From Rhizaria sp. SCN 62-66 (Eukaryota): a stretch of DNA of 64,000 bases. The position numbers and the translations under genes were made by a program. Below are positions 1-60,546 of this stretch, piece after piece. Under the pieces are notes generated by a model. That model did no database searches. It saw only the letters and a list, made by a program, of their open reading frames with translations, and was not told where the DNA came from. Position 1 is the first letter of the stretch, and each line of letters starts with the position of its first letter. Where the stretch lies: the NCBI GenBank assembly GCA_001724265.1, contig MEDY01000006.1, positions 62,001 through 126,000 on the forward strand, read 5' to 3'.

Positions 1-3000
1 GCTGACGCCATGGACATGAGTTCTCTGGTAGTACTGGTTATCAGGAAGCATGGGGTTGTTCGCATTGCTAGGTGTGGTGTTATTACTGCTGCCGTTAAGC
101 ATAGCATGCCGCGCTACACCGCCGTGCCAGCCGCCGCCAGTGATATCCAATAGGAACTCCGTCGTGTTGGTACGGACCGAGACGTTGTTGCTCTGCCCCT
201 GTGGTGGCGCAAAAGGTGAGTCACCGACGGACCGGTTTGCAGGACTGTGGCCATTTTTAGGGGTGGCTGAGAGTGTGGTCGATCCGCGGACCCCGGGACT
301 CGTCCCGGGCACGGTGACAATAAGAGGCGCCGGCGCACGAACAACGCCAGCACCTGCAGAGCCAACAGGAGCCTTTGCGCTTGATTCATGAATGATTGGG
401 AGCTTTGGACTCCCGCCAACACCGGGACGAGCGTTAGCAGCAGCACTGTTGTTACCGTCGCCGGACGAATGGCGCTGCTGACTCAAAGTCATAGCAGGCG
501 GAGTTGTGGGGGAAAAGGGATTGACCTGACACTTGATCACAGCACGGTGATAATGTGTCGCTTTTCCGCATACACCCGTGCCCTGCTTGAGAAGACTGAC
601 TTTCGGCATCGGCGGCGAAGGCGTGAACATCCCGTCCTCTTGATCGTCGAAGTCATCCCCATTATTAATCACTGCACTCGAAGCAGGAAGTGGAACGACA
701 TCAGGAACCGAAGTTAACTTGTGCTCCTCATCATCGTCGATATCATCCTCACAATCGACGTTGACATCATCGTCATCATCAGTGACGCAGTCACTGTCAC
801 ATTCATGCTCTTCGTCGCATTGCTCACCCTCATGTTCACCTTCGATAACAGCCCCAAGCCCAGCAGCAGCAACAACAACGTCGTTAGTTAAGTCAATTGT
901 GCCATCAACCCCAGGCTGAGTACCTAGCGCACCTGCACTTGCGGAGTCACTGTCGGCCATAGGTGCAGACGCTGCTGTAGGAGGAGCAGTATGTGAACCG
1001 TGATGCCCGCTAACCGCGCTACCTCCAACGGCAGCGCCGTGACTGGTACTGTCGTTGATCTGCGGCGACGTGTGATTGCTCGCGATGCTCTCAAGTGTCA
1101 GTGCTTGACGCAGCTTCGTCTTAGCGCGCAACCGCGCGCGCTGCATCTTGGCCTCCTCTTTGGCACCGCTAGGTCGGCGGAAACAGCAGTAGAACCGTCT
1201 CACCGGCGCACAAGCGCCTTCACCCTCCGCGCTGGCTACAGTCGTCGTCGTTGTCGTCGTCGTTGTCGACAGGGGCGACTGGGCCTCAAGTGGTGACGGC
1301 ACATAAGGAGTGAACGTAATTTCTTCCTCGCCCTCGTTGATAACAGTAGTTCCAATGTTGCGTGAGGCTGTGTTGGCAAGTGGTTTGCGTTTGTACGCGT
1401 AGGCTTCGCCCCATAGCTCTTTCTTGTTGTCCTCTTCAACAACAGTCACCGCAACGCTCCCAAACTGCCTCTGCTGCACATATTGCAGCGGCGTGCGTTG
1501 CACAGAGCGGTTCGCAGCAGAGGTGGATGAAGCGACCGTGGCGCTGATCGACGGCGTATACACTGCAACCGTGAGCTCAGCATCCGCAGGCGTGATGGTT
1601 GAGTGTGGAGGAGGCACCAGCAACGCGCTCTGCCGCCTCGATGCGGACCCACTCGGAACGCCCACGCGGCCGCGCGCAGCGACTGCACCGGCTGGCGGTG
1701 GGAAAATAAGATGCGCGTGCGATTGAGAGCGCAAATAAGACGTCGACTGCAAGAGCTCCCGGGCGGCAATGAATGACACTGAGCCGGGTAGCGTTGGCTG
1801 ATTACTACTTGCGGCAGACACTGCCTCTGAACTGGTTTGTTGTTGTGCTCGGTTAACACTGTTTTGAGCGATACCAGGAACTTGAAGAGTAAGAGAAGCA
1901 ATACTACCACCACGTTCACGGCCGATATCATGACCACTATTGCCGTATGTCAGCAAGTTGTCATCGACAGTGCGTGTCGCGTCGCCGGAGATAGAGTAAG
2001 CACTCTGCTTGGCCTTGTCCTGGTTCTCATTCACTCCTTCGATAGGGTTGCTCTTGGTATGACTGAGTGCATTAGCCTTGATTCTATCCTCGTCGTCATC
2101 AACTGCGCCTGGGGCGCTGACGTCCCGGACGTGCACACCTCCGGTGACAACAAGGCCTGACCGACGCGGCTGCTGCTGCGAAAGCGACTCAAACGCGAGC
2201 TGCTGCGACGGGTTTTGCACGAGAGAAATTGAATTCAATGATGTACTTGGTGGATGTTGCATCGCAACAGCATGCGCAGGTGTTGAAGTGGCCATACGTG
2301 CGTTCACAGGCGACCGCACGTGCACAACAGGAGCCTCGCCCTCACGGCACACAATCAACGGCCCCAGTCCTGCGTTGCGAAGCCACGGCATGTGCGAGTG
2401 AAACGAGTGCAGGAGTTCACGCTCACGGCGGCGTTGTGAGCGCGATCGCGAGAGAGAGCGGGCCGCACCAGCGCTTGGACTCGCAGTGACAACTGTCACA
2501 GGCAGGTTACCCTCTCTGGCGTTGCTTCTAGCAACACTGTCGCTGGCACTAGGCAGCGTTCGAATGTTAGCAGCTCCGTCACTAGCGCTGTTGACTCGCA
2601 AGTTTTGGCCATCACCGGTGTCGTCGCTATCGTCGCTGTCGTCGCTGTGGTCGGGAAGGTAAAAGTCGTACGGCATGTACCGGCGCGCCTCTGCTTTGCT
2701 CCCGTCAAGAAGACCCATCGCGATGTAGCACGCAGCAACGAACGAGCTGCAGAAATACCCCTGCTCAATCCGCGCCTCAGCAAGAATCGGCTCTAGTGGT
2801 GGCAGAGGGGGAAAACGCCTCGGTCGCTGAGAGCGTGTGTGCTGTTGGACAGGCAGGGCGACCGTATGAGAGTGGGAGAGCAGCTGAGTATGTGACTGCG
2901 GGGCTGCGCCATTGTGTTGTTGATACTGCTGTGTATAGCTGTACTGATCAAGCACTGGTGCGGATTGAGAAGGCGCCAGTACATTGCTTGTTGTCATCGC

Positions 3001-6000
3001 CATTGCAGCCTTCTGGTCCTTGCGCTTGCAAGCACCCTTGGCTTTGCCTTTATCCTTAGTCTTAGCGTTGTTATCAGTCTGGACAAGAGTCTTGTTATTT
3101 GTCGGCGGTGCCGTTGTCTTTGTTGCAAGAGTCGTGGTAGCAGCGGCAGGATTTTTCGCGAATCCAGACAGCGTTAGCGCCAAAGATCCCTGGGAAGGCG
3201 CCACTTGCTCCATCCTCGGCTGGACTGGAGCTGCGCTAAAGCCAGGGCGCTGTGCCGAAGAGACTGTCAGCGCAGTCGCTTCTACCGCTGTGTGCAGCGA
3301 CGGCCACAGCAGACCCACTGTCGCAGCAGCTGCAACCGCATCGACGTCCTCGTTGATGCTCACCGTCACGCCTTTACGAGGACCGGTGCTGAGACTGCCG
3401 CGCCGCACAGGGCTTGTGTCAGGCGCGGCGCCAGCGTTGGCGTTCGTGTGGTGAGTGCGTGCGGTGTTGAAGTGTGAGGACATCGGGGATCGACCGATGA
3501 TCCCGTAAACGTGACTGGGAATCGCGGATGTTGCAGCACCAGTGCTGATGGTACCAGTGGCTGCGGATGCGCCCACAGTATTCGCCGCCTTGCTATGATT
3601 AGAGTGGGCCTGAGTCTGCGCGGGCGGGGCGAGCAGCACCCGCGCAGCGCGACGGCATCTCCGGAACACCCTACCGATGTCCATCTCACGAACCGCGAGC
3701 GCCAGAGACTTGCGGCTCGCAGCCATCGCAGCCGTTGCAGTGGCCGCGGCGGCGTCGCCGAGCGTCAGCGAGGACGTGATGAGTCGCAGACGGCTACCAA
3801 AGGCCGCGGTGACTGGTAACCCTGCAGGAGGAAGCAGAAGCAAGGCAGACGCAGCAGCCACAACTGGAGTAGTCTGGCTTGTGATGTGACCATCCCCAAA
3901 GCTGAGAGGACTGCGGCGCATGTGCGACAGCCCTGGTGACGGCGCAGTCGGCTTTAGGCTTCCGCTAATCATAGAACTGCTGCCGTGCGGCGCGTACGCG
4001 TCCGTGATGCCACGGGTGAACGCATCAAGGATGGTGAAGACAGCAACAGTCACCTTAGTCTTGCAATCAACAACAGCGCGCGCGAGCTTAGCATTTGCAG
4101 CCTCGGCGGCCTTCGCAGCAGCTGCAGTCGTCGGCGTCGTGTTTGTGCTTGAGACAGAAGCAGCTACAGGCTTAGGAGGAGTGCTGTAGTAGTTTCGAAC
4201 GTTGAAGTTGTTGTCAGCCTCAGAGTCCAGTTCAAACGCAGGCCCTCCTGGTGAGTTTCGCGGTTTTCCAGGTGGAATCTGCGGAGACATACGTGGGCCA
4301 AAGGCCGGCGTACTGCCGGGCGTCCTCACGACACCGCAATAACTGCCAGCGTTAGTAGCATTGCTATCAGGGACAGCGCCAAGCGTGGCAACTACAGTCC
4401 TCACAAGCGCCATCACGTGGCCAAACGTGACATTCTTCACGCCGCTGACCGTGCCCGCCGCGGTCAACTCGCCAAGAAGCCTGCGCAAAGAATGTGGGTC
4501 CGTGACAGCCTCCAGTGCTGCAGCAACAGCGCCCGCACCCAAAGTCGCTCCGTTCCAGGCGTCGACAGCCGCGGTTGCGGCAAGCGGTGAGACTGCAGTG
4601 AAGGCAGCGTCGATCGACGTGAACAGAGCTTCAAGCACGCGGGTGGAGCCACCTGCCTCTTTGACCGAGGCAGAAAGACGGGGCGCGCGAACGGGCACCG
4701 TGGACGGCAGCGTTCCGTATGGAATAGCTGCCCACAAGCGCAACTGTTGCGTCTGCGACTGTGCGCCGCAGAGTGATTGTGAGCCCGAGTCTTTAGGAAG
4801 TGTCCCGGAGCTTACACAAGAAGGACATGTCGGCGAGCCGCAAGGGGACTGCGAGCTGCAGGGCGACTGTGGGGAGCCGGAAGCGCTCCCACTTGCGCGC
4901 GCACTCGTGTTCGCGGAAACCGCAGAAGATCCAGTATGTGTCGAGGTCGCCATGATTGTAGGCATGATCGCGAGGCGGAGCTGGCTCCACTGGTTGGCGC
5001 TCCCGGAACCACCACACGCACTCGTACTCGGCGGTGACATGCCGGCACTGTCAGGCACTGACATTGCCGATGACGCGTTTGAACCACGGCGAGGGGCACC
5101 GCCAGGTGAAGCAGTGCTGACGCTACTACAGGAGCAAACACCGAACTTCTTGCTACTGAGAACAGACATCAACGCGAGTGTTGCAGCATTCACCTCTGCA
5201 GTAGCGGCCGCCGCTGTGACGGCAGCAGCCGCGGCCGCTGCAGCCGCCTTTGCGGCACTGGCACCAGCGGCGGCTGCGCGAGCTGCGTCGTTGGTCCCGG
5301 AAACGGAACCTAGCTTGGCAGCATTCGCGTTGCTAGCGGGCGCTGCAACTGCAGGCAAAACCAGGGGATGCAATACAGGCAGCACACGGCCCGTGATATG
5401 ACACAGCTGAACTGAGGGGACGCGTTGCAGTGCGACAGCAATTGCAGCAGCACTCATCCCAACGCCACCAGAACTTGAACTCGTCGCGGCGTTAGCACTG
5501 ATCGAGTTTGCGTTGGTTGAAGTTAGACTGCGCGTTGATGGAACGGTAAACGGGACGGGGGACTCAAAGAAGAGGTTCTGAGATAGTAACGCGAGTTGGC
5601 GGCTGCGTCGCTGGCGACGACGACTACGGCGCGGAGGCGAGCTACGCGGCAGCAGGCCCTGGGCTGGCGACGCTTGCGAGAGAGACAGCGACTGGGATGG
5701 TGACGCACCAGGAGACTGACGCACTGAAATCTTTGGCTGAAGCTGTTGCTGCAACGGTTGAGCCTGCTGTTGTTGCTGTTGGCTCTGGGGATACGGCGGG
5801 GGCAGACGGCTGTTCGCAGCAGATCCACCCCGTGCAACAATCGGGCTGAACTGAGTGCTGGAACGATTCGGGGCATGACTTAGGACATTGTTCGTGTTGG
5901 GATGACGCTGCTGCATCGCACTCGCATCACTCTCAGTGACGTTTGCACTCGCAACCCTGCTTCCAGCAGCGCTGTCGCTGATGCTTGGACTGGCACTCGC

Positions 6001-9000
6001 ACTCGTAGATTCCCCATCGCTATTGTCTTGATGGCTGAGACGGCTCTTGTTTTTGGCTGCAGGAGGCGTGAGAAACGAGGTGGCCTTCTTGCTGATGTCG
6101 TTGTTCGCGTTGGTTTGACTATAACTGTAGTGAGTGCTGCTCTTATCGTCGTCGTCAGCATCGTTGTCGTCGCGCTGACTGTTGTTACGACTACTGAAAC
6201 TGTTCAAGTTGCTGCCATTGTTCTTATTGCTTGGACTGTTGTAAACAAGCCTGTTCCCCGGTTTGCTGCTGCGGCGAGCATCGGCCTCATCGTCGTTGTC
6301 CGCCTCGTCCGCGCCGTCGTCATCAGCGTCATTATTGTAGCCGGTGGCAAGCGCAGTCTCATCGTCATCATCGTAGTCGTAAATACCGTCGTAGTTTTTA
6401 TCGTCTTCATAGTCATCGTCGCCAAAGTCATCGTCATCATCGTCGTATTCGGACTCTGTGGCAAGATCGATGTTGTCCAAATCTGACCCCCAACCAACTT
6501 CGTCAGAAGCCACAGCGTTGGCGCCTGCGTTAGCACTCGTAACAGCGCCAGTGTGCATGCCAGAGCCCGGAGCAAGAGATGTAGAGGCATGATGCGCATT
6601 TGCTGTGCTTGTAAGTGACTGTGATGCAAGACCGGTGGAGTGACCACCGAAGCATAGCTCAACCCCAGTACCGCTAACAGTGCTTGCAGGGGTGCCTTGT
6701 GTGTTGCTGTTTGCAATAGGAACAAGCGAGATGACGCTAGGACGAGAAAGAGCACCTGCATTACTGACTGCCGTACCGTTGTAACTGTTCAGCGGCGTAG
6801 TATCACTGAAACTGTGGTTTGCACTTTTATTAGCGGTCAGAGTCACGGATGCAGCAGTGCGCGTGCAGTCACAGCCATCACGGCCGCACTCGCAACCGGG
6901 CACTTTCGGCGTTTGTTGCTTCTGCTCTTGCTGCCGGCGCAAGCGCTTCTTTGCATCCGCCTTTGAGAGTGCGTGCGCCGCAGCGGCGAGCAGCGGCGGG
7001 GGCAGCGACGCGGGAACCCAAACGACCTGTGAGTGCACTGCAGCAGCAGCAGCCGCTGCAGCAGCTGCTGAAGTCGTCGTCGACGCGGTAGTGGGCGCAG
7101 TCGGCGTGGAGTTGTTGCCGCTGTTGGAGTTGACAGTGGTCACGACACTGTCGCTCACACTGCTAGGGACGTGCGATGGCGGCACCAGCGCAATGTGAGA
7201 GCCTGCAGGAGGAAACGACTGCGAGCTGCTGGTGCCGACACACAGGCCGCCGGGAGTTGCGTCACCGTCACCCGTGCAAACGGGCACTGGGGCCTGGTGA
7301 TAGTGCGGGATGCCGGCGAGTGCGAGGGGACACGGAAAACGTGGCGGGGGCGGCGAGTGGCCGTGAGCAGTGTGATCACTCAGGCTATCACCGAGATTAA
7401 ACGCGTGGTTGTTGTTGAGATAAGGACATAAGAAGACCTTAGGTGGTGCCACAAGCAGAACTGACTGCGCAGCTCCCGCTGCGTTGGCGCCGGACGACAA
7501 CGCAGCCGCTGCGGCAGCGGTGGCGTCCGATTCAGAGTGTGTCATGCGGCCCGGGCCGTGGCCGGGACCGTGGGCGTGGCTGGAACCGTGAAGATGTGGA
7601 TGGCTGTTGTGGGACGACGTGTGGGGGTGGCTGTGCGCTTGCTGGTGTGGCAGCGTCTGCGGGTGCTGCAGCAAAGCCCATGCAGCAACAAAGAGCAGAA
7701 GCCTCCGCATCAACTCGTGGCGCTGCGACACGACAGCAGCGTTGGCGGTCGCAGATGCAGCCGCCACCGCGTTGGCAGCAGCAATACTGCCAGACGTTGC
7801 AGCTGACGTTGTTGTTGCAGGGGCGGATGCATCAGAGTCAGACTGCGAAATATCAAGCGCAGACCGCACTCCGCCAGTGTAAAACACGCCATTGTTGTTA
7901 TTGATGTTGACCGGGCTCCCGTGTGTACTGTTCGCGAGGGTTTTGGCCAGGGAGTGCGGCAGCGCGACCAATGCCTCGATGGCTCTATACGCTGCCGAGA
8001 TGACGGCTGGAAATGCAGTCACCATCGCCGCAGCAGGCGGCAACGGAGGCAACGGGTACGCCTTGACGCCAGCACCGTCCCCAGCAGTAGCGGCAGTCGA
8101 GTGGAGCACGGGGCCGTTGGCTTGAGCAGAAGACGTGGACGGCGGGCTGATGAGCGTCGGGCCCGGTGGCAGACCTGCGCCGTGGGCGTACCCTGCGCTT
8201 GAGCTCGCGGACGTGAACGAGCCGACCGCGGACGCAGCGTCGGAGCCAGAGACGAAGACCGAGTTTGCGTCGCGACGGGAACGCTGGAAGCCCACTGCCG
8301 CGGACCCGTTGGCGCCAGTGGGAGCAATGATGGGAGCAACCGTGTTGTTAGTGCCCGCACGCACCGGGAAATCACTGTTCGCGCCACCGCTAGTCAGAGC
8401 CGCACTAGGCATCAAGCCATTGCTGGAATTAGCCTTGTTGTTCGAGTCCGTGTTGTTGTTCCTGTTGTTTGTGTTATTGTTGATGGTGTACGCTGAGCCG
8501 ATATCGGAGAACGGAGTGAACAACGAATGTGCGCCTGGGTCCGCCATCGTGCCTGCCTCCGGACAGTCGCCGGCGGTCGCAGACGAGTGGGCGCGGATGT
8601 CAGCAGCAGTCTCCGCGCCGCGGGCGTTGGCGCCCGCGTCCTCGCCAGCGTCGCCGACAGAGTCCATCATCGTCACGCCAAACTAGAAGTCGCCAACAGC
8701 CGTGCTGCCCCAGGTGGCGCGGCGATTCGCCCGTGCCAGTGCCTCCGCGTGGCCCGGCTGCTGCGGCGCCTGCTTCTGCTGTTGTTGTGAGAGCCCCTGC
8801 TGCTGCCCGCCCAGCTCCGAGGGGTTCGCACGACCATTAGTCTTGCCCAGCAGGCTGCCCGCGCTCATCGCTGTCTGCAGCGGGTAAACTGGCGCCGCAG
8901 CCGGTGCAACCGTGGCGTCAGAGACCGGTAAGTGAAACGGAGACCCGGTGTCAGCAAACGTTGCCAGAACGGGTCCGCCCGTAGACCGTGCGTAGCCCAC

Positions 9001-10167
9001 AGCAACATTGCTGCCACCGGCGCCCGCACCAGAAGCCACAGCGGCGGAGTCACCAGTGGTGGTGCCAGCAGCAAGGCCACGAGCGAGAGCGGCGTCACTC
9101 GCGCTCGCAGTGTTGAGCTTACTGTTCGTGCTAGTGGTGATTGCGCCTCCGGTGCGCACAGTGCCGCTCTTAAGAGCGCCGTTTGCAGACTGGCTCGTGT
9201 TAACAGCGGAATGGTGTGACGCCAGCGTCGCCAGCGTGGCAGAAGTCGAACCAGTGGCAGGTCTCGCCTCAGCAGTCGCGGTCGCAGTCGTCGTGGTTGT
9301 GACGGGGGAAGCAAGAAGAGCTTCAGCCGGGTTGACAGTCGTTATTTGCTGCGTCTGAGCCAACGAATGGTCATGAGCATTGACTGTGACTGTGCCGCTT
9401 GCGGCGGCGACAACTACAGCGTTCCTGTTATTGGTGCCGTTATTGATTATGCTGTTGTGATTCGTTTGGCTCAGAAGGCCCTAGTGCGCAGTCACCGCCG
9501 TCCGAACAACCGCGCGCGTGTCTTGCAATGAGAGAAAGCGCATAGTGAGCGGCGTGTATGGCGTCTCATCACCGCTGCAGACATAGCGCATCCACCACTT
9601 GAGAGGGATAACGTACTTCTTCCCCTTCGCGATGTCGAGAAACGCGTTAAATCGGTTAATCACCGTCGTGGCGTTATGGTGTGGGTACAACAGGCGACGG
9701 AACGCAACGCGAACAAGAATAGGGTCGTTGATCCGGTCATTGAGGTCCCAGCACATAATGCCAGAGGAAGTGCACTCGAGAGTGCAGTAGCCACGGGCAG
9801 ATTCGAGGACTAGCCCAACGTGGTCCCAGGGAAAAGATGTAAAGCAGCGGGTGACGCATCCGCCGGTAGACTTAGTACTGAAGAGAATAAGATCGCCGGT
9901 GGCCTGCGGTAAGGATCCGCGGGCGTGAACAGGGGCAGAGTGCGAGTGACAGCGAAACAAAGCAAGGAGTGGAGTGGTGAGTAGTCGGTATGAATTTGCG
10001 GGTTATGACATGTGTGTAAGCGCATAAAAGCGCATCAAATAAGTGCGACTGCAAGTCATCTAGCGTAATCGTGTGCATATTCGGAGATACGTCAGGTTTG
10101 TATAGAGAAAATGACGTACCAGGTCATTTGGTGCAACTCGCAACCGCCCGGCCTCAGGAGCGCTCAT
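1..10167 (-). CDS. Giant permuted papain-like amidase (circularly permuted NlpC/P60, YiiX/peptidase C92-like) protein, 3'-partial; exons 10120-10167 and <1-9903; at least 3317 codons; two in-frame TAG (9481-9483, 8683-8685)
   Basis: ATG at 10167 gives MSAPEAGRLRVAPNDL; a GTACGT...CAG intron (9904-10119, phase 0) joins it to ATGDLILF...WDHVGLV...LECTSSGI...VAFRRL...GKKY. The same frame contains GYFCSSFVAACYIAMGLL...YMPYDF at about 2660-2760. The frame below 8682 appears open to base 1: spot-checked by hand, and the ORF track lists no ORF ending in this frame there. Confidence 0.8.
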
Positions 10168-10602
10168 GAGGTTTCGCTCGGCACCAGATATGAGAGGAAA
10201 AAAGAGACTTCGAGAAAAATTAAAATCAAATAATATAATAAATGAGCGGTTCTATCTTTGCAATCTATTGGGAATGGCAACAACGACCAGCGTGAGGCGA
10301 TATCTGAGAGCCAAGATGGGCTTTGGTCGAGGCCGAGATACTACCCTCCCGCCAAAAAGCACGCCTTTCATATGACCGAGATAGGATGCATTTTACGCAA
10401 TAGCATCATGTAATCAACAAATATGCAGATAGAAATTGCGTATCCAACAAATTAAATTGTGTATTAATCTGTAAACGCACTATATATCTTGATAGAAAAC
10501 AGTTACCCTTGCGATATCTACAGTCAAAGTTCAAATGCACAAAATATCTTCTTCTCTATGGAGGAGGCAGTTTCGCAGACTGGCACAGCGCGGTATTTCT
10601 CG

Positions 10603-46457: not shown

Positions 46458-49400
46458 TTAGCGCGACATGCGACGGCTCCCGCCACGTCCCTTCTGCTGC
46501 TTCTCACTCTCACTCTCCTCCTCTGCGTCCTCAACCACCGCGCTCGCAGCAGCGTCATGCTTGCCCTCAGCGTCACCAACCTTGCGCGTAATACTCTTAT
46601 TGTTGCTGCCCGCGTTGTTGTTATCATTAGCAGCCTTGGGAACCGTGTCTGTCTCACTGCTCTTAGAGCCAGTGACGGTCTTGTTGCCGTTCGTGTTGTT
46701 GTCGTTGTCGCTGCTACTCACGTCTGAGCTGCTCTCGTTGTCAAGGTCAGCAAGGAGCACAAAGCTGTTGTCGCTGAAGCTGGACTGACGTGAGCGCTCT
46801 TGCTCCCGGTCACGCGCACGCTTTGCATTGCGCTGCTGCTTCTTGCCCCCCGCAGTCGCACTAACAGTACTGCTCGCGGTGTCAGTGCTGCTGCTGCCCA
46901 TGTCACTGGACGCGGTGCCCACTTGGTGCCATTCACCTTCAGCGTCGGTGCTGCCAGTGTTGGAGCTCTCGTTGCCACCACTTGTAGATCGACTGATTGA
47001 TGTAGCAGTCTTCTTATCCTTTCTCTTGCCCTGACTCTCGCGGGTGGGCTCCGACTCAGCAGGGCGGTTGCTCTTGTCTGAGTGAGTGGTATCAGTGGTG
47101 TGGCGCGGTGTGTTCTCGTCAGTACGGCGATGGGCATCCGCTGATTGCTCGTTTGTTGCCGCGGTGTGATCGCGCAGGGTGTAGCTGAACGAGGGCCACA
47201 TGTGCTGTTGGTACAGCGGACTGACCATCTCGTAGAACAGACGATAACCACCGTTATCTGCGGTGTTGTCGCCAGCACTTGCCCTAGCAGCAGGGATGTT
47301 GCTAGCGTTGACACTTGTGCCGACGTTTGCATCGGATGTGCGGTTGCTCCTGTTGAGCGCGCCAGGAGAGGCAAGCACCTTCTGTTGGTACTTACTCCGC
47401 TCACCATCGCGCAGTGCAGCGCTAGCGCTGTTGTTCTGTGAGGCTGCAATGGCGGCGTAGCTTGCAGGCTGTGCGGTGTCGGTTTTATCACTGGCGAGTG
47501 AGCTCATTAGAGCGGAGTGAGTGCTGGCATCAGTATTGGGCTGAGTCGTGCCAATGTTTCGGATTAACACGTTGCGGGGACCTTGCTCCTTCCACGTTGC
47601 GCTCTTGCTCCGCCCGTGCCCACTTGCGCCAATACCGCGCCCTGGCTGGTTGTATGTTGCACCGCTGAGACCACCACTGAGCGCAATCTCACTCAGCTCA
47701 TCTCCCAGTACACCGAGGTCTAACGAGGTAAGCCCGTTGTCGTCACGCTCACCTTCGCTGTGCAACAGCGTCCGGTGCGGCAGCGTAATCGCGGGACTGT
47801 AGGCGCTGGCAGGGGCAATGATGGGCGAGACGGGGGTGTATGTTCGGCGAATAGGCGGGTTCGTATCTGCGTTAGTCTTGACTCCGTGAGGGTTGAAGTA
47901 CGGGTCAAATGGCAGATCTTCTGCGTTCAGAACGCCTCGATCGTCAGTTGCAGTATCACCCTTGCGCATACTAGACTGGATTCCAGTCTTTGCCTTGGCA
48001 CTGCTCTTGATGAAGTCGTCGCACTGCTGCTGCACGCGAGGCGACATTGGGCTGCCGGTTGACTGGCGCGCGTCTTGATCCTCGCTCTCATCAGACACGT
48101 CCTTGTTGCGAGTGCGGCCACCGTCGTCACTTGAACCTGGACTCGACTCAGAAGCCGACGAGATCGTAAATGAAATCGGACTGCTGGCCTCGCGGCTTAG
48201 ACGCGTAGTGTCAGGACTTGCTTTGGCCTTCATCACGTGCGCACCCGACCTATCTCGCTTTGTGTTCACATTATTGCGCGTAGGAACCTCGGACATGCGA
48301 ATAGAGTCTGGGCGACTAGCATCTGTCCCGGAGAGAGAACTTGAAGCGTGCTTAGCACTAGATCCTTTGTTGGCCTTAGTCGCAGGCTGTGCGCGCAAAC
48401 TCGGACGAGGGCCGGCACTTGAGCCCGGGCCGACGCGAGACTTTTTGGCGCGGTGCTGCGGACTCAGGCCACTGCCCTACCAGTACTCGGGAGCCTCCAT
48501 CTCATACTGGTCCTCAGCCTGGAAGTACGGTGGCGCAACGCCCGCAAACTAGTTGCTGGCGGAGCCGGGTGCTTGCGCGCGGTGTTGATCTTCTGCGCGC
48601 TTTGGCGCGTTGCCCATGTTTTCGGCGTTGATACTGTGGGTTGTAAAGGGGCACTGCACGCCTGCAAAGCGCGATACATTACTCGCGTGGCTAGGTCCGC
48701 GGGAGCTGCTAAACCGTGCGGGTGTGGTAGTTGAGTAAGGCAGTGATGAGGAAGACGTGTTACTACTTTCACGAACGCGTGCGCCAGCGCTAGCACTCGT
48801 ATCAAACGTTGCACCGAGGCCTAATTCTGTGAGAAAAGCGCGGGCCTCGTCCGTGAGACTAGCAAGTGCGTTGTAGTCAACCCCGTCGCGCCCGTCGGCG
48901 TCGTTATCTTCAACAGCAACAACAACAACCTCCGTGTCCTTATCTCCATCATCTTCGAAATCAGCACCGGTACCGGCAAGGGATGTGTCACGCGCAATGT
49001 CGTACTAATCTGACGTCGCACGGGTAGGAGCGCGTGACGATCCAAAAGCTGCACTCCTGTTCTGGCTCCTGTTCTGAGCGGTAGTGTCACTGTCCTCGTC
49101 AGCGGGTGTCACAAACGAAAAGCTCGTCACAGTGTACAACCCTTCTTCGTCATTTTCGATACTGCGTCGGTTGGCACATGAACCAATGTTAACATCATTG
49201 TCAAGTGGAGTGATTGTAACAGTTGACAAAGTCACAGAACCGTCATCATTAACGGTGTTGGCGCGCTGCCTCTCGCTGCTGGTTGCATCGCTGCGTCCTA
49301 GACTTGCAGCGAGAGAGCTGTAGTTGCTAGGGCGTGGCACGTTGGATGGCACATAGTAGATGCCAAGTTCGACTTCTTCATCCTGGTCTACACCCCGCCC

Positions 49401-49982
49401 ACGGTTGTCAGCGCAAGTATAAGTAGCAGCTGTTGAGGTAGGGTGACTGTGGGCAAGAGGAGCAAAAAACTGATCGATAAAATTGTCATCGCCTTCAGCG
49501 TAGTTAGAGGCTAGCGTTGCTAAGCATGAGGCGATCTCGCCGTCCAGCTCAGCAGCCTCCTCAGCGCTCATCCTTGCACCAGTGCGCGCCTCGCCTCCGC
49601 GGCCGCGGCTCCTGTTGCCGCGAGCCTCTGTGCTGGGCAACGCGTATGTGTGGCGACTATCGTTGACCTGACGCCGGTGGCGGTTGCTGTCGTGCTGGCG
49701 CTCGGCGCGGCGTTGCTGGCGCAGCAGCTTCTTATGTACACGCTCAGCCTTGCGCTCAATCTTGGCGCGTTTGCGGTCTGTGAGTCGCTCGTGGCCACCG
49801 ATGATATTGCGGTCGCGTATACGGTCAATCTCCGCTACATTAGCATAGTCGTCTGTAACGCCGTGGCTGTGGGCTGCGAGAGCGGCCTCAAGGGCTGCCT
49901 GAGCGGTGGGGAAGAGAGCTGCGGCAACGTCAACGTCTTCGTTGTGGTCAAGACTAGCATCGCTGTGAGAGATGACGACCAT
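46458..49982 (-). CDS. Hypothetical low-complexity protein of about 1174 aa with three in-frame TAG (49005-49007, 48549-48551, 48477-48479); 5' end uncertain
   Basis: ORFs 49005-49982 and 46458-48398 share a frame. Hand translation of the gap is continuous protein-like sequence broken only by TAG codons, with no AT-rich intron. Basic patch RKRAKIERKAERVHKKLLRQQRR. Ends TAA. A CAG acceptor at 49963-49965 suggests a possible further upstream exon. Confidence 0.65.
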
Positions 49983-53251: not shown

Positions 53252-56200
53252 TCACCGACGCTGCTCGCCGCTACCGCCCTCGGCGCCTTCCTGCGCCTCC
53301 GGGTCGGGCTCGTGCGACAGCAGCAGCTCCACGGCGGCCTGCATCGTCGCAAGGTAGTAGCCCGTCATCAGGAAGCGTTCCTTGTGCGGCATGTAGTCCT
53401 CGATCATCTGCAGCTGCGCCCACAGGCCGGGGATGCCGCCGCGGCACGCGCGCAGCATGCGTAGCTGGCACCGGACGCCGACGATCGCCGCCGCGGGGAC
53501 AAAGTCAGACGGTTGTCCCGTGGTCTCGATGTTGCTCGCGTCATCACGGGTGTTTCCACGCAGCCACGACGTCCACAGCATGTTGCGCGGAATCAACGGG
53601 CCGTCGGTGCCGCCAACGACTGTGCTCATGCTCTCGGCCGAGTCGACCGCGCCAGAGTACGCCAGCGCACTGGCGTCGGTGCGGAGCGCGCCAGAGTCGC
53701 CCGCCTCCCGCAGCACGCGCTGCGCGAGCGCGGTGTCGTGCAGAGCCGCCATCGTGTCGCTGCCGCCGCCGCGGATGAGGATAAGCGCGAATAAGATCAG
53801 CAGGTCGTCGGCGCCGATGATGATGGGGCGGCGCGGCGGCGGAGGCTTGTTCGCCTTGGCGCTGCTATCAGATGCAGCATGAGGAATCGGTGCGACCGCA
53901 GGAGTCGAGACGGTACTCTCGGTGATGACAATCGCGCTGATAGCAGACGTTGTAGCGCTGGCACCAACGGCCGCAGGGGGCGCAGAGTCCTCGGGATTCG
54001 CGGTGTTACTCTTCTCAGCGTTCGGAGTAGTGTTGTTATCCAGCGAGAACGGGTCTTCGTCGATGTTCAGCCCGGTGAAGGGCAGCTTCTCGTCGCCCGT
54101 GCGCAGCTGCTGCTGCTTCGCCGTAATGCGCGGCGACAGGAACGGCGACTGGCCCGTAGCGATGCCGCCGCTGACATTGCTGCCGGGTGCAGTCAGGGTC
54201 GACGACGAGCGCGGCATTGGCTCACGCGCAGCAACAGCGGCAGCCTTAGAGTCGCTGCTGCCGGATTGCTGTTGCTGTTGTTGCTGCTTCGCGAGCGCCC
54301 GCGCAGCCTCAAGGTCTTTCTGTTGCTGTGCGACGTCGACGCACGCGCAGACGAGCTTGGCAATCTTTGCGATGGCGATGAGCTTATCCATGGGGTCCGA
54401 AATCAGCGGCAGCGCCGAGGCGCGGAGCACCGCGGGCGCGAACGGCGACGTCAGCGGGTGCGCGCGCAGGGTCGACACGCCGCGCGACGCTAGCGGCAGC
54501 ACGTCGTGGGCACTAGCGTGGCTGCCGTCGTGGGCGCGGTGGCCGTTGTCGGCGCTGACGAGAGCGGTCGCACCGATGTGGATGTCGTTGCTGTTCTCGT
54601 TTGCGGCGTTGATGGCGGCCGTGGTAGCGGTCTCATCGAAACACAAGGGGGCTGCGAGGCCAAGACTAAATAAGACACAAAGGAAACAAAGAGTAGAAAC
54701 AATCGTTCAGTAAGTTTGTTGTTGTGCTACTGAAAAAAATGGATACAAATTAAAAGGAGTATTAAAAAATGAACAAAAATATGGCCTACCGAGAGATGAC
54801 GACGGGGCGGAAGCGCGCGACCCTGCGAGCAAGCGCGGCGTCCTTGTGCGCGTTCTGGATGCGGTAGAGGCGCGAGATGACGGTGCCGGTGAAATGGAAC
54901 AGCGTGCGCGAGACCGTGCGGCGGATCACGTGCTCGATGTGCGCGTCCGTGGGCAGCGACAACGGCGTCAGTACAAGCTGAAGCTGCTGTTGTTGGTACA
55001 GATGCCCACTGTCATCAGCGCCAGAGTGGGCGTCACTGGCCGCGGCAGCAGCGTTGTCGCCGGCGCCGCCGTTGTTGTTTGACGCAGCGGCAGCCGCGGC
55101 GGCGGTCGAGGTGGCGCCGAGATACTGCGCGGCGGCCCTGGTGGGGACGAGCTCGAGCACGCAGTCGCTGAGGATCGTCTGTGTGATGTGCGACACGGCC
55201 AGCGTGACGTCCTCGAAGGCCGTGCGGCGCACCTGCTTGAGGTAGCGCAGACTCGGATACGGCACCGGCAGCGGCGCAAAGAGCTCGGTGGGCAGCACGC
55301 GCCGCCCCGTGGGGCCCGCGAAGAGCGAGCCCGGGGGCACGGCCGTCGCAGCGCCGCCCACGGCCGCGCGGTCAACGACGCCGGCGGCAACGTCAGCGGC
55401 GTGCGCGGCGTCGCTGTTGGTGCGGGACTGCGCCGTGGACGCACCGTGACCGTGGCCGTGGGCGGGCGAGGGCGGGTACGAAGGCGCCGCGGACGGGGGC
55501 AGGTCGACGGGGAACCGCGGCGGGGCGCCGGCACCGGTGAGGTAGCGCACGAGCGGACGCAGCGGGGCGAAAAATGCCGCGCTGCCGGCGGCGGCGGAGG
55601 ACAGCGCGACGGTCGCAGCGTCAGTGGGGACGTGGACCTGGCTGGAGCTCGGACTGGGGCTGACGGCCTTGGCGCTGCCGCCGCCAGAGGCACTGTTGGT
55701 GTACGGCTTGGAGACCGAGGCGGAGAAGGCGAACGCGTCCTCGTCGTCGTCGCTGCTCAGGCTGCCGCCGTGGGCCGCACTGCCGCTGCAGTCGTCGCTG
55801 TCACTGACGCCGTCGTCGCTCTCAAAGTCGCTCTGGTTCTCCGTGCTGCCGAGCTTCGCGTTCAGGGTCGTGCTGGTACGGCTGTCTTCAGCCTGATTCT
55901 GACTCTGGCTCTGCAGCTGCGACTTGAGCTGCGCCTGCGCCTGCGCCTGGGAGGTGGAGGCCTTGTGGGGCGTCACTGGGGCCAGCAGCGCCGACAGCGG
56001 CGACGTCACCGCAGGCAGCGACATTGGCGCGCCGCTCGCGGCCGCGGCGGAGGCGGCGGCGGAGGCGGCTGAGGGCAGCAGCGACACGGCGCCGGCGCCG
56101 GGGGCCGACGACGGTCCGGCCGACAGAGCGAGGTCGTCGGAGCTGGCGCTCGCGGCGCCCAAGGGAATGTTCGCGGTGGTCGCGGGCGCGACGGAATGGC

Positions 56201-59200
56201 CGCGGCCGTGCTGCGGCGACTGCGCGAAGCTACTGGGGTAGTTGTTGTTGCTGTTGCTGTGGGGGAAGCCGCTGGGCGCCACGCAGTCGTCCCAGAGCGG
56301 GCGCAGGAACGGGGCGCGCGCGTAGAGGCGGCAAACGTACTCCACAGTCGCGGTGAAGAGCACTGACAGCGGCGAGGGCGGCAGGGACGCGGCGGGGCGG
56401 CCGGCAAGGGCGCCGGACTCAGCAGCCAACCTGGAAATGGAAACAAATTCAAAAGAGACATGCTGTGTTTGAGAAATTAGTTTTACAATTAAAAGAAAAT
56501 TGTTTCGCTCTCATAAACATGAGGCAAAAACTCCAAACAAAGTTTAATTTGTGAGCAAAATCTGCGTACTTGGTGACGAGGTCGTGCGTGAGGACGTTGA
56601 CGACCCTGTGCGAGAGCAGACACAGCGCGGGCACGGCCTCCGGCGGCGGCGTGTGCGGGTTCGCGTGCAGCATCTTCGAGTAGCGCGCGGTGTAGTAGGG
56701 CGCGCCGGAGGGGGAAAACAGCCACGGCGCTGCCGCGGGTGAGACCTCGAGCGGGTTGGGCCCCGCGGCGACCGCGGCGGCCAGCGCGGCTGCGGCGGTC
56801 GAGGACTGCGAGCGGGAGAAGGAGTCGTTGGGGCCGATGCCGGCCTCCTCGTCGTCGCACGGGGTCGCCTCGTCCTCGTTGATCTCGGCGATGAAGTCGG
56901 CGGGCGACAGCGGCGCCGCGGCGAATAAAGACGACAGCAGCGGCTGCAGCAGGTCCTTGCTCGAACCTGAACCAGTCGCGCTCGCGCTAGTGGAGCTAGA
57001 GCTAGAGTTAGAGGTAGAGCTAGAGCAAAAATGGCTGGAGTCTGCTGTCTTGGTGGGCTTGCCGCTGTCCGCGGCAAGAGGCGGCGACAGCGGCGCCGGA
57101 TGCGGGCCCGAGGCGCCGGGGGGGGCCGCGGGCGCCACAGCTATGGGGAACGACAGCGGCTGCGTCGTCGCTGCAGCGCCGCCATCGCCGTTACTACTGT
57201 TGTTCACAGGGACGGATACGGCGCAGACAACGTCAAGGAACTCGTTGAGCGCGTGTGTCGCGTCAGCCACAGGCACCGCGTAAGACGACGACGCGGACGC
57301 GCCCGCGCTCTGCGTCGAGTTGCCGCTCGCAGTGTGGCTCAGACGGGGAGCGTCACTCTTGTTGCTCGAAGTAGCGGCATTGCCGTTGGTGTCATTCGTG
57401 GTGGTGTTGTTCGGTAAATAGATAGAGGCGTCGAAGGGCGACGTCGGTAGCGGCATCAGCGAGTGCTCGTGCAGGTAAGTCTTGAACAGCGACGAGCAGG
57501 CGCCCCCCATGCCTCCGCCCACCACATCGGCCGCAACATTCGCACTCAGGCTGCTGTTGCCGCCGGCAATGGCGCTGAGTGGCGGGAGGGAGATGGCGTG
57601 CGCGCCCACCTGCGTGGGCGTCGCGGCGGCCAGCGCAGCCACCATGCGCTTGCGCATCAGCGAGCGCACGACGCGGAACGCCGAGAGCTTCGCCAGGTCC
57701 ACCGCGGGCTCGCTCGCGGCCGCCAGCAGCTGCGGCGGCGCGGCGGCCTCGGCAGCGGCAGCGGCGGCGGCCAGCGCGGCGGGCGCGGGCGCCACGGGCA
57801 GCGCCAGCACGGGGGTCGGCTGCGCCGTGGCGGCGGCTGCGGCGTCCTGGACGTCGGTCTCGCCCAGCCAGTCTTCGGCGAGCAGGAGCGAGTCGGCGGT
57901 CACGCCGGTCGCAGGCAGTGAGGAGGACTTGCACTCGTCATCGGCAACGGCAACCTGAGTATCGTCGTCGTGCTCGGGAACGTTAACCAGACTAGTGTTC
58001 TTGCTGCCATTGCTCGACTTGCTGATATTCGCAAACACTTCGTCGGTGTCCGCATCAGCGCACACAAGCTGCTCCAAGTGCACCGTCTCGAGCGCCTCGA
58101 CGACGCGCCGCGACTGCAGCGAGCAGGCGCAGCCGCCGAGCCAGAGCGCACGCAACCAGCGCCGGCGCTCGTCGGGGGACTGCGACGCGAGCAGCAGCGT
58201 GCGTTCACCGTACTGCGCGGCGGGGAACGTGACGTAGAAGTACGCCAGGTTCGGGTTCGGCGCGAAGGACGGGTACAGGCTAGCGTTCATCGCGCTGCCG
58301 TTGCCGCCGCCGCTGCCGCCACCGCTCTGCGGGGGCGGACGCGGGCGCGAGGCAGCGGCGGCGGCGGCGGCGGCCTGCGCGGGGGACGAAGCGATGGGGT
58401 ATCCGCTGGCAGAGCGGTGACCGCCGCTGTTGTTCGCGCTCGACGCAGAGCCGCTGTGGCTGCCGCGGTGACCGCTGTTGTTGTTCTGACTGGTAGCATG
58501 ATTCGCGTGGCCATGCCCGTGGCCGTGGATGTTCCCCATCGGCCGCACCGCACTGCCGCCGCCGCCGCCGCTGCTGCCGTGGTGGTGGTGCGCGTCGCCG
58601 CCGCCGTGCGCAGCGGCGTGCCCGGCGCCATTGGGCGGCGAGGCCACGGTGGAGGCGGGCACGGCGTCGAGGGCCTTGATCGTGGCGCCACCGCCGAGCC
58701 AGAACTGCTTCCCGCCGGGTGGGGGCGCCGAGGCCGCGGCGGCGAGCGGGACCTCGCTCTCGTAGATCGATAGCATGAGCAGTTTCGAGGAGAAGATGAA
58801 GAAGCGGCGGTAGGTGCGCCACTTGCAGACCTTGATGAGCCAGCCGGAGTGCAGGATCGGCTCCAGCGTCGGCGCTGGCAGTCGGAAGCGGAACGTGGCC
58901 AAGAGCAATGGGGACGGCGCCGGCAGCGCGCGCGGGGCCGTGTGGTGGCTGTTGGACCGGCTCACCTCCAGCGACTGGAACTGCGAATGTGACTGAGAGA
59001 GTGACTGTGAGCGGCTGCCACGCGTGGGGGTGCTAACGACCATCGCAGTGTCATCTCCGTTTTTGTTGTTGTTGTTGTTGTTGTTGTTTTTGTTATTGCG
59101 ACGGCGACGGTGACCGCGACGCTTGCCGCCTCGCCCGTCAGTCTGCTGCGCCGCCGCCGCCTCGGCCTCAGCCGCGTGAGTAATCGCCAGCGCGGACGCC

Positions 59201-60493: not shown

Positions 60494-60546
<53 letters not shown>

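What the first reader, a model, noticed from the sequence alone, without database searches (positions are those of the whole stretch)
8683..9483. Two in-frame TAGs sit between the two catalytic halves of one enzyme domain
Seen: ...VRTAVTAH*GLLSQTNHN... (TAG 9481-9483) and ...WGSTAVGDF*FGVTMMDS... (TAG 8683-8685) lie in the frame linking WDHVGLV (His at 9820-9822) to GYFCSSFVA (Cys at 2749-2751). Established: permuted NlpC/P60 enzymes carry the catalytic His N-terminal to the catalytic Cys in one chain. Inference: both halves look intact, so both TAGs must be translated through. This is the strongest internal support for UAG being a sense codon.
Basis: partly seen in the sequence, partly recalled or inferred. 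Interest (0 to 1): 0.85.

Follow-up and report, generated by a model that had tools for sequence, protein, structure and literature searches.

The report
In-frame TAGs inside a split enzyme gene
Two TAG stop codons sit inside the coding sequence of one very long gene, between the two halves of a single enzyme domain, and together with other genes nearby they suggest that this uncultured wastewater microbe reads TAG as an amino acid.

Summary
On the minus strand the frame from 10002 to 1 has two stops in 3334 codons, both TAG, at 9481-9483 and 8683-8685; the other five frames have 65-184. Relatives show that the two halves are one permuted papain-like domain (Pfam PF05708, YaeF/YiiX). Each of six homologues matches the read-through protein at exactly two collinear places, residues 34-143 (His) and 2408-2450 (Cys).

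The organism is an unidentified eukaryote from wastewater and bioreactor metagenomes. It has GT-AG introns: I modelled eight, and each restores one long frame. One of them supplies this gene's missing ATG. No intron-like GT-AG pair spans either TAG, and coding signal stays in one frame across both.

Two other genes carry four more in-frame TAGs. None of the 11 gene ends I could see uses TAG: 6 are TAA and 5 are TGA. TAG 9481 is identical in contigs from two other runs.

Best reading: UAG is decoded as a sense codon, confidence about 0.6. There is no transcript or peptide evidence, no tRNA or eRF1 was available, and no TAG lies at a conserved residue. The encoded amino acid is therefore unknown, and a leaky stop or a decaying gene is not excluded.

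The parts
10120..10167 (-). Predicted exon 1 of the gene: ATG at 10165-10167 plus 15 codons, ending in the motif PNDL
   Evidence: With the intron removed the frame is continuous. The match to an HMM of the relatives' N-termini rises from 121.2 to 129.0 bits and extends 5 positions further towards the N-terminus. The exon is inferred and has no transcript support.
9904..10119 (-). Predicted intron 1: 216 nt, donor GTACGT, acceptor CAG. It contains an in-frame TAG and the TAA at 10003-10005.
   Evidence: The donor equals the consensus of the other introns. The acceptor is weak (leave-one-out score -4.1). GC is 0.49. The only contig from an RNA library across the donor (X9, 9969-10288) is unspliced.
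9577..9903 (-). N-terminal (His) half of the permuted papain-like domain, with the motifs GDLILF, WDHVGLV, LECT, FRRL and KKY. The His codon is at 9820-9822.
   Evidence: phmmer hits of E 2.6e-19 to 2.1e-14 to P0002-P0007. Invariant columns are kept. BLASTP of six homologues gives E 2e-25 to 2e-14. The family HMM aligns through YVIPLKWWMRYVC.
9481..9483 (-). First in-frame TAG, 31 codons after the end of the conserved N-terminal half
   Evidence: Identical in X4 contig 9053-10915 and X6 contig 9412-9717. A public gene call (P0001, 91 aa) stops here.
8683..8685 (-). Second in-frame TAG, flanked by 67-82% GC sequence
   Evidence: No intron-like pair spans it (best total score 2.2). A public gene call (P0048, 3524 aa) starts just after it. 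No listed piece showed independent read support.
2782..9576 (-). Low-complexity insert of about 2265 codons between the two halves of the domain. It is open in frame apart from the two TAGs.
   Evidence: coding score positive in this frame only. It is not built of tandem repeats: 4 short arrays in 10.3 kb. Relatives have inserts of about 15 to 300 residues at the same place.
2653..2781 (-). C-terminal (Cys) half of the domain, with the motif GYFCSSFVAACYIAMGLL. The Cys codon is at 2749-2751.
   Evidence: BLASTP against P0005 gives E 5e-11 and against P0003 E 2e-11. All six homologues tested hit it, collinear with the N-terminal half.
1..2652 (-). C-terminal tail of the same reading frame, which runs off the window
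   Evidence: The public gene call P0048 (3524 aa, 100% identical) extends about 630 residues beyond the window. It has no Pfam domain.
46458..49982 (-). Second gene with in-frame TAGs (49005-49007, 48549-48551, 48477-48479). It starts with ATG at 49980-49982 and ends with TAA at 46458-46460.
   Evidence: The coding score is best in the same frame in all four segments. No intron-like pair spans any of the three TAGs. No Pfam family.
53252..61162 (-). Third gene with an in-frame TAG: four exons and three introns, PH and VPS9 domains. ATG at 61160-61162, TAG at 61052-61054, next in-frame ATG 204 codons later, terminal TGA at 53252-53254.
   Evidence: The spliced model is one frame of 2502 codons with 1 TAG and no other internal stop. 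The coding score is best in the same frame on both sides of the TAG (0.11 and 0.31).

Best explanation
The two TAGs lie in the second exon of one gene. Exon 1 is 10167-10120 and exon 2 runs from 9903 past the window's left end, for about 3950 codons in all. The gene encodes a YaeF/YiiX-type permuted papain-like (NlpC/P60 superfamily) cysteine hydrolase. The loop between its His-bearing half and its Cys-bearing half has grown into a low-complexity insert of about 2265 residues. A complete domain can only be made if the ribosome passes both UAG codons. The most likely reason it can is that this organism decodes UAG as an amino acid and terminates only at UAA and UGA. UAG would be a rare codon here (6 in about 18,000 codons), found in fast-evolving low-complexity parts of three genes.

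Shown: the coordinates, the single open frame, the coding signal, the homology of both halves, the introns elsewhere, and the stop-codon tallies. Inferred: that UAG is translated, by what mechanism (a tRNA with anticodon CUA and/or an altered eRF1), and into which amino acid.
For: (1) There are 2 stops, both TAG, in 3334 codons of this frame, against 65-184 in the other frames. The same frame scores best on both sides of each TAG, while six modelled introns score -0.7 or lower in every frame.

(2) Both halves belong to one domain. All 6 homologues tested hit the read-through protein at exactly two collinear places, residues 34-143 and 2408-2450. Of 9 homologues scanned, 7 match PF05708, 5 of them at or above the 27-bit cut-off. 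The model of homologue P0007 (pLDDT 75.5) matches the PDB structures 3kw0 and 2if6 (E. coli YiiX) at E 5e-7 to 4e-6.

(3) Introns do not explain the TAGs. The eight modelled introns are 103-216 nt and 29-49% GC, 6 of the 8 begin GTACG, and each restores a single long frame. The best GT-AG pair of 450 nt or less spanning any TAG scores at most 11.9, against 19-32 for real introns, with 54-69% GC.

(4) Other genes add four more in-frame TAGs: three in the gene at 46458-49982 and one between the only nearby ATG and 204 Met-free coding codons at 61052-61054. No in-frame TAA or TGA remains in any spliced model.

(5) Terminal stops are TAA 6, TGA 5 and TAG 0 of 11 gene ends seen, each followed by an AT-rich spacer. 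The two published UAG-only nuclear codes show the same pattern, with UAA dominant and UAG never a terminator (PMC5304391, sections 6 and 7 read).

(6) TAG 9481 is not an assembly error. An X4 contig (9053-10915) and an X6 contig (9412-9717) from other studies carry it unchanged.
Against: No TAG lies at a conserved position, so no alignment shows that a residue is inserted or which one.

All 6 TAGs fall in 3 of 12 genes. The 7 TAG-free genes used as the training set hold 10,816 codons with none. For a freely used sense codon, about 3.6 would be expected there.

Random nonsense mutations in these genes would give TAG 51-58% of the time, so '6 of 6 are TAG' is only about p = 0.03. '0 of 11 ends are TAG' is about p = 0.01-0.04 if TAG were normally 25-33% of stops; that share is my assumption.

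The 4 of 4 differences between the X4 contigs and the window in this gene are nonsynonymous, as expected for unconstrained sequence. Each comes from a single X4 contig (depth 3.1-6.3) and may be an error.

No tRNA was found in the window, and no genome is held for it.

Contigs from the RNA library X9 do not cover the TAGs, and the one across intron 1 is unspliced. Nothing here shows a transcript, let alone a protein.
Confidence: 0.6

Rival explanations
1. UAG is still a terminator but a leaky one. Near-cognate decoding or a weak eRF1 lets a fraction of ribosomes pass, so the full-length enzyme is made at a low level and the 140-residue N-terminal fragment is the main product.
For: TAG is very rare in frame (6 in about 18,000 codons) and absent from the 7 better-conserved genes. 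That fits a codon which is costly to carry. The absence of TAG at 11 of 11 gene ends would also be expected if UAG terminates poorly.
Against: Passing two or three leaky stops in series would give very little full-length product, yet frames of 2900 and 670 codons are kept open behind them. The bases after the six TAGs are G, T, T, T, G and A, with no shared context of the kind I recall from known read-through signals. That comparison is from memory and was not tested.
Confidence: 0.15
2. The code is standard and the gene is dead or dying. The two TAGs are recent nonsense mutations in a pseudogene or dispensable gene, and the same holds for the other two TAG-bearing genes.
For: Single-base nonsense mutations in these GC3-rich genes give TAG 51-58% of the time. 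The TAGs cluster in three low-complexity genes with the lower coding scores. The 4 of 4 strain differences in this gene are nonsynonymous.
Against: It requires 3 of 12 genes in one 64-kb window to be disabled, each by TAG only, with no frameshift and no TAA or TGA in about 7000 codons. Nonsense changes are only 2.1-2.8% of possible substitutions, so 2 and 3 such hits imply dozens of other changes, and by general expectation several indels, before the frames would still be intact. It also leaves 0 of 11 TAG gene ends unexplained. The sequence around TAG 9481 is unchanged in a 2025 run (X4) and a 2024 run (X6); runs of 2015-2017, possibly the source, hold 99-100% of the sampled words of 8300-10300.
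Confidence: 0.12
3. The TAGs are removed from or changed in the RNA, either by atypical GC-rich introns whose length is a multiple of three or by editing, so the mRNA has no in-frame stop.
For: The organism does splice: 8 modelled introns plus 3 more seen in the gene at 19987-21400. In two cases an apparent TAG stop is really intronic (54786-54788 in a GTAGGC donor, 20833-20835). A perfect GTACGT hexamer lies at 9616, upstream of TAG 9481.
Against: The GTACGT at 9616 encodes the invariant Tyr and is followed by residues that align to the family HMM. No acceptor of real-intron quality follows it (best -1.4 to 2.3, against 7.6-20.6 for real introns). Sequence on both sides of every TAG has coding signal in one frame, unlike real introns. 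There is no AT-rich island at any TAG. No credible joint over 8683-9483 appeared among the listed rows; every joint listed had only 20-24 letters on its shorter side. That table was cut and RNA cover was poor.
Confidence: 0.08
4. Assembly or sequencing error produced the TAGs.
For: The window is a metagenome contig. TAG 8683 and the four TAGs in other genes were not checked against independent reads.
Against: TAG 9481 is identical in contigs of two other runs from different studies. Six independent substitution errors that all make TAG, with no indel error in about 18,000 codons, is implausible.
Confidence: 0.02

Closest known systems
YaeF/YiiX family, Pfam PF05708 Peptidase_C92 (permuted papain-like amidases of the NlpC/P60 superfamily; solved examples E. 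coli YiiX 2if6 and B. cereus 3kw0)
   Same: The order is His first, then Cys. The GD..LF, DH, E, G, RRL, PY and FCS motifs are kept. Homologues reach the Pfam threshold, and a homologue's model matches 2if6 and 3kw0.
   Different: The window's own protein scores only 12.3 bits (E 0.18) against the Pfam model. The loop before the Cys helix holds about 2265 residues, against a compact domain of about 170-200 residues in bacteria and 15-300 extra residues in the eukaryotic relatives. The protein is about 3950 residues long and otherwise has no recognised domain.
UAG-only nuclear code variants: rhizarian exLh (UAG = Leu) and Iotanema spirale (UAG = Gln), Panek et al. 2017, PMC5304391
   Same: In-frame UAG appears with no in-frame UAA or UGA. 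UAG is never seen as a terminator, and UAA is the commonest stop (here 6 of 11; 56 of 71 and 104 of 119 in the paper). UAG is rarer in some gene classes than in others.
   Different: In those organisms UAG is common (384 in 71 genes, 204 in 126 genes) and sits at conserved Leu or Gln positions. Here there are 6 in 12 genes, all in unconserved stretches, so the meaning is unknown. The coding sequence here is GC-rich (55-73% GC over most of the window). The organism is unidentified, so it may or may not be a new lineage.
Blastocrithidia (all three stops reassigned; Zahonova et al. 2025, PMC12153298, abstract read)
   Same: In-frame stop codons are avoided in some genes and tolerated in others.
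   Different: There all three stops are sense, UAA is the only terminator, and the genome is GC-poor (abstract). Here only TAG occurs in frame, TGA also ends genes, and the genome is GC-rich and has at least 11 cis-spliced introns in 64 kb. I take that to rule out a trypanosomatid; the near absence of cis-introns in that group is recalled, not tested.
LRAT / H-REV107 (HRASLS) family, the other permuted NlpC/P60 branch
   Same: Same His-then-Cys permutation. HRASLS3 (4dot) and H-REV107 (7c3z) appear as weak fold matches.
   Different: These matches are weak (E 0.15-0.21, TM 0.24-0.26), and no sequence match was found. The YiiX branch fits far better.

Membership tests
PF05708 Peptidase_C92 (YaeF/YiiX permuted papain-like) | The protein itself matches the family profile above the curated cut-off (27 bits) | tested here: not met
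   The whole read-through protein scores 12.3 bits, E 0.18, over residues 35-104 only. Each half alone gives no hit at E 0.1 or better. The giant insert splits the match.
PF05708 Peptidase_C92 (YaeF/YiiX permuted papain-like) | Clear homology to proteins that do pass the family threshold | tested here: met
   phmmer E values are 5.2e-18 to P0003, 2.1e-14 to P0007 and 2.3e-09 to P0008. These score 27.9, 30.1 and 30.8 bits on PF05708, and P0017 and P0033 score 38.1 and 37.7. Of the 9 scanned, 7 match at E 0.01 or better (5 at or above 27 bits) and 2 (P0002, P0010) do not match.
PF05708 Peptidase_C92 (YaeF/YiiX permuted papain-like) | Circular permutation: the catalytic His lies N-terminal to the catalytic Cys in one chain | tested here: met
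   The His codon is at 9820-9822 and the Cys codon at 2749-2751 in one frame. All 6 homologues tested align collinearly to both. 'One chain' holds only if the two TAGs are read through.
PF05708 Peptidase_C92 (YaeF/YiiX permuted papain-like) | Conserved core residues kept (GD, DH, E, G, RR, Y in the N-terminal half; FCS in the C-terminal half) | tested here: met
   Invariant columns G36, D60, H61, G71, E76, G81, R90, R102, F121 and Y130 include the window's sequence. The FCSSF motif aligns with 53% identity to P0005.
PF05708 Peptidase_C92 (YaeF/YiiX permuted papain-like) | Papain-like alpha/beta fold as in 2if6 and 3kw0 | tested here: inconclusive
   This is met for the short homologue P0007 (model pLDDT 75.5, pTM 0.72; 3kw0_A E 5.3e-07 and TM 0.59-0.67; 2if6_A E 1.0e-06).
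PF05708 Peptidase_C92 (YaeF/YiiX permuted papain-like) | Hydrolase or amidase activity | not testable with these tools
The substrate is unknown for the eukaryotic branch.
Nuclear code with UAG as a sense codon and UAA/UGA as stops | In-frame UAG in several genes with no in-frame UAA or UGA | tested here: met
   There are 6 TAGs in 3 of 12 genes and no TAA or TGA inside any spliced model.
Nuclear code with UAG as a sense codon and UAA/UGA as stops | UAG is not used as a terminator | tested here: met
   0 of 11 gene ends seen are TAG (TAA 6, TGA 5). The sample is small. Two apparent TAG ends turned out to be intronic.
Nuclear code with UAG as a sense codon and UAA/UGA as stops | UAG falls at conserved positions occupied by one amino acid in orthologues | tested here: not met
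   None of the 6 TAGs lies in a region alignable to relatives. Both TAGs of this gene are in the variable insert. No long orthologue was found (1 hit, the window's own protein).
Nuclear code with UAG as a sense codon and UAA/UGA as stops | A tRNA with anticodon CUA and/or altered eRF1 | not testable with these tools
   No tRNA is in the window and there is no Rfam hit. No genome is held for the window.
Nuclear code with UAG as a sense codon and UAA/UGA as stops | UAG present in mature mRNA, with peptides spanning it | not testable with these tools
   Only assembled contigs were available. Pieces from the RNA library X9 do not cover the TAGs, and one piece is unspliced at intron 1.

The most novel reading that the evidence does not exclude
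An uncultured, GC-rich, intron-bearing flagellated eukaryote, recurrent in wastewater and bioreactor samples from 2015 to 2025, has dropped UAG as a terminator and uses it as a rare sense codon. This could be an early or low-usage stage of stop-codon reassignment in a lineage not yet known for it. If so, it would show that reassignment need not go with an AT-rich genome. The same gene would also be an extreme case of a catalytic domain kept functional across an insert of about 2265 residues.
Probability: 0.55. Interest if true: 0.75.

Novelty: new member of a known kind. Interest (0 to 1): 0.62.

Why it matters
Nuclear codes in which only UAG is reassigned are known from very few eukaryotes. 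The published cases use UAG often and at conserved positions. A GC-rich organism in which UAG is rare in frame, absent from gene ends and confined to fast-evolving segments would be a useful snapshot of how a stop codon is lost.

There is also a practical consequence. Standard-code gene callers have cut this gene into a 91-aa and a 3524-aa product. Ignoring introns splits at least four other genes in the window. Protein catalogues built from such metagenomes therefore misrepresent this organism.

Tried and rejected
Kinetoplastid reading. Long same-strand ORF runs and pyrimidine tracts first suggested an intron-free kinetoplastid. I rejected this when frame changes turned out to be GT-AG introns. 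My first stop tally (TAA 8, TGA 6, TAG 1) counted several intronic stops and was replaced.

Searches that gave nothing useful:
- N-terminal half against proteins of 304-2000 aa: 0 of 868 candidates passed.
- Whole protein against proteins of 1833-5835 aa: only the window's own product passed.
- Vps52: only itself and one unnamed JGI protein, P0050, 73% identical over 22% of the query.
- Cluster look-up of 9 proteins: none carried a name.
Repeated with Vps52, it returned one 3.7-kb identical contig without the gene of interest.

Taxon. The two Atlas calls pointed to Euglenozoa, among others, for Vps52 and to diatoms and green algae for the glutaminyl cyclase. This gives no usable placement.

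Sequencing runs:
- All runs were contigs, not reads.
- Every joint listed had 20-24 letters on its shorter side and skipped 438-18056 nt between low-complexity stretches. I took these as cross-matches.
- No listed piece covers 8683-8685.
- RNA-library pieces (X9) lie at 211-500, 3948-4385, 5795-6055, 7962-8228 and 9969-10288. They are collinear with the DNA, including across the predicted donor at 10119, so they may be DNA carry-over or pre-mRNA. They show neither splicing nor expression.

Other points:
- No own genome is held for the window.
- Literature: no paper held all of 'UAG', 'stop codon reassignment', 'wastewater' and 'eukaryot' in a relevant sense (1 hit, about phages). The search for 'UAG', 'genetic code' and 'bodonid' gave 3 papers, none reporting such a code. 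The search for 'NlpC P60', 'YaeF' and 'permut' gave 0. The classification of permuted NlpC/P60 families is therefore recalled, apart from Pfam's own description.
- Supplementary tables of PMC5304391 were not seen.


Full report
**The observation**

On the minus strand, codons 9483-9481 and 8685-8683 are TAG, 9822-9820 is His and 2751-2749 is Cys. In the frame that contains them (10002 to 1, 3334 codons) these two TAGs are the only stops. The other five frames of the same stretch hold 65 to 184 stops. Codon-usage scores, trained on seven other genes of the window, are best in this frame before, between and after the TAGs. Six modelled introns score -0.7 or lower in every frame.

**One domain in two halves**

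- A phmmer search of 1.84 billion representative proteins with the 173 residues upstream of the first TAG found 46 proteins at E 0.001 or better.
- The best hit is the window's own 91-aa public gene call, which ends at TAG 9481.
- The next hits (P0002-P0011, 217-765 aa, 32-49% identical) all share one layout. A short N-terminus is followed by GD..LF, DH, E.T, G, RRL and PY motifs, then a low-complexity stretch of about 15 to 300 residues, then G(F/Y)FCSSF..A.Y...GLL.
- The window's Cys region matches the same proteins: P0005 at E 5e-11 and P0003 at E 2e-11.
- All six homologues tested by BLASTP hit the read-through protein at exactly two collinear places, residues 34-143 and 2408-2450, and nowhere else. 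The His half has no partner Cys nearby, and the Cys half has no His half of its own.
- Of nine homologues scanned against Pfam, seven match PF05708 ('Permuted papain-like amidase enzyme, YaeF/YiiX, C92 family'), five of them at or above the 27-bit cut-off.
- The window's protein alone reaches only 12.3 bits.
- An AlphaFold model of the short homologue P0007 (pLDDT 75.5) matches the solved family members 3kw0 and 2if6 (E. coli YiiX) at E 5e-7 to 4e-6. The LRAT-type proteins are weak further matches.

What is unusual is the size of the insert, about 2265 residues. It is not built of tandem repeats.

**What kind of genome this is**

The window is a metagenome contig. Its words occur at 99-100% in three bioreactor or wastewater runs of 2015-2017 that may be its source, and at 81% in a 2025 run. 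No genome is held for it.

I first read it as an intron-free kinetoplastid-like genome. That was wrong. Where neighbouring long ORFs change frame there are AT-rich stretches bounded by GT and AG. The eight I modelled have these properties:

| Property | Value |
|---|---|
| Length | 103-216 nt |
| GC content | 29-49% |
| Donor | GTACG in 6 of 8; GTGCGT and GTAGGC in the other two |
| Acceptor | pyrimidine-rich tract before the final AG |

Removing them gives single frames of 1643, 4756, 659 and 2502 codons. Three more introns are visible in a small gene at 19987-21400.

This changed three things:

- The TAA at 10003-10005 and the missing ATG are explained. An ATG exon (10167-10120) with a GTACGT donor joins an acceptor at 9904. 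This raises the match to the relatives' N-termini from 121.2 to 129.0 bits.
- Two apparent TAG gene ends (54786-54788 and 20833-20835) are intronic.
- The intron explanation for the two TAGs had to be tested properly.

**Are the TAGs in introns?**

I scored every GT-AG pair of 30-450 nt spanning each TAG with donor and acceptor matrices built from the eight introns.

| Candidate | Total score | GC content |
|---|---|---|
| Eight real introns | 19-32 | 29-49% |
| Best pair over TAG 9481 | 10.8 | 57% |
| Best pair over TAG 8683 | 2.2 | 67% |
| Best pair over any of the three TAGs in the second gene | 11.9 | 54-63% |

- The only good donor near TAG 9481 is a GTACGT at 9616. It encodes the family's invariant Tyr and is followed by residues that align to the family profile.
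- No AT-rich island lies at any TAG.
- Among the listed rows, no credible joint across 8683-9483 was seen in contigs of four runs. That table was cut, RNA cover was thin, and the one RNA-library contig at the 5' end is unspliced.

An ordinary intron is therefore unlikely, but this rests on sequence signals and not on cDNA.

**Are the TAGs real?**

A 1861-nt contig of run X4 (9053-10915) and a 306-nt contig of run X6 (9412-9717), from other studies, cover TAG 9481 with no base difference. TAG 8683 was not shown to be covered by a listed piece.

**The rest of the window**

With introns taken into account I count 12 genes and about 18,000 codons.

- The gene at 46458-49982 has three in-frame TAGs and ends in TAA.
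- The four-exon PH/VPS9 gene has its only nearby ATG at 61160-61162, a TAG at 61052-61054, and then 204 codons of clearly coding, Met-free sequence.
- That makes six in-frame TAGs in three genes, with no in-frame TAA or TGA anywhere.
- The 11 gene ends inside the window are TAA 6, TGA 5 and TAG 0, each followed by an AT-rich spacer.
- The two published UAG-only nuclear codes show the same pattern, with UAA dominant and UAG never a terminator (PMC5304391, sections 6 and 7 read).

**Weighing the explanations**

Several results count against a simple 'UAG is a sense codon' reading:

- Nonsense mutations in these GC3-rich genes would yield TAG 51-58% of the time, so six of six is only about p = 0.03.
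- Zero of 11 TAG gene ends is about p = 0.01-0.04 under an assumed 25-33% share.
- All six TAGs sit in unconserved sequence of three genes, while seven other genes (10,816 codons) have none.
- The four differences between strain X4 and the window in this gene are all nonsynonymous. Each is seen in a single X4 contig (depth 3.1-6.3) and may be an error.

The pseudogene reading has its own difficulties:

- It needs a quarter of the genes in one window to be disabled by TAG only.
- None of them has a frameshift in about 7000 codons.
- Frames of 2900 and 670 codons are still open behind the stops.

Taken together, I put:

| Reading | Probability |
|---|---|
| UAG decoded as an amino acid | about 0.6 |
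| Leaky read-through of a still-functional stop | 0.15 |
| Decaying genes under the standard code | 0.12 |
| Removal or editing at the RNA level | 0.08 |
| Sequencing or assembly error | 0.02 |

The amino acid cannot be named from these data.

**Comparison and novelty**

- The enzyme is a divergent eukaryotic member of the YaeF/YiiX branch of permuted NlpC/P60 proteins, with an exceptionally long loop insert.
[quoted passage not shown] It differs in that UAG here is about ten times rarer per gene, is not at conserved sites, and sits in a GC-rich genome.
- The organism could not be placed, so I cannot say whether this is a new lineage.
- I rate it a new member of a known kind, of moderate to high interest. 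Binning the genome and looking at cDNA would settle it directly.

Noticed in passing
window 12398-12521, 35339-35462, 41069-41201, 51481-51583, 54666-54789, 56431-56569, 59929-60070, 9904-10119; also about 20208-21306: At least 11 GT-AG introns (103-216 nt, AT- and T-rich, donors mostly GTACG) join what look like separate ORFs into single genes of 1643, 4756, 659 and 2502 codons. Public ORF-based gene calls for this contig are therefore fragments.
   Followed up: yes
window 31655-46182 (+): A giant three-exon gene of about 4750 codons with CFAP65/HYDIN-type Ig-like domains lies in a block of 71-73% GC (32-46 kb). The rest of the window is 44-69% GC. The cause of this sharp compositional step is unexplained.
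   Followed up: partly
window 17917-17950 and 18667-18835 (Vps52): Runs X4 and X9 hold a second, diverged version of Vps52. Of the 33 listed differences, 29 fall on third codon positions, so a sister lineage under purifying selection lives in the same samples. A JGI protein (P0050) is 73% identical over part of Vps52.
   Followed up: partly
window 165, 210, 6687, 8499: The four listed differences between run X4 and the window inside the long gene are all first-position, amino-acid-changing substitutions in low-complexity sequence. Each comes from a single X4 contig (depth 3.1-6.3), so some may be errors.
   Followed up: partly
window 9611-9616 (-): A perfect donor-like GTACGT hexamer lies inside conserved coding sequence (the K-Y-V codons, with the family's invariant Tyr). 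It is a likely decoy splice site.
   Followed up: yes
proteins P0005, P0020-P0023, P0044 (relatives): Many eukaryotic relatives of the enzyme begin with MGC or MG..C and carry CC clusters just after the PY motif. This suggests lipid anchoring of the family. That is an inference from motifs I recall and was not tested.
   Followed up: no
window 62300-64000: The last 1.7 kb is AT-rich (GC down to 21-28% in 61-nt windows), and no ORF there of 50 codons or more had a codon-usage score above -0.15. I did not examine it further.
   Followed up: no
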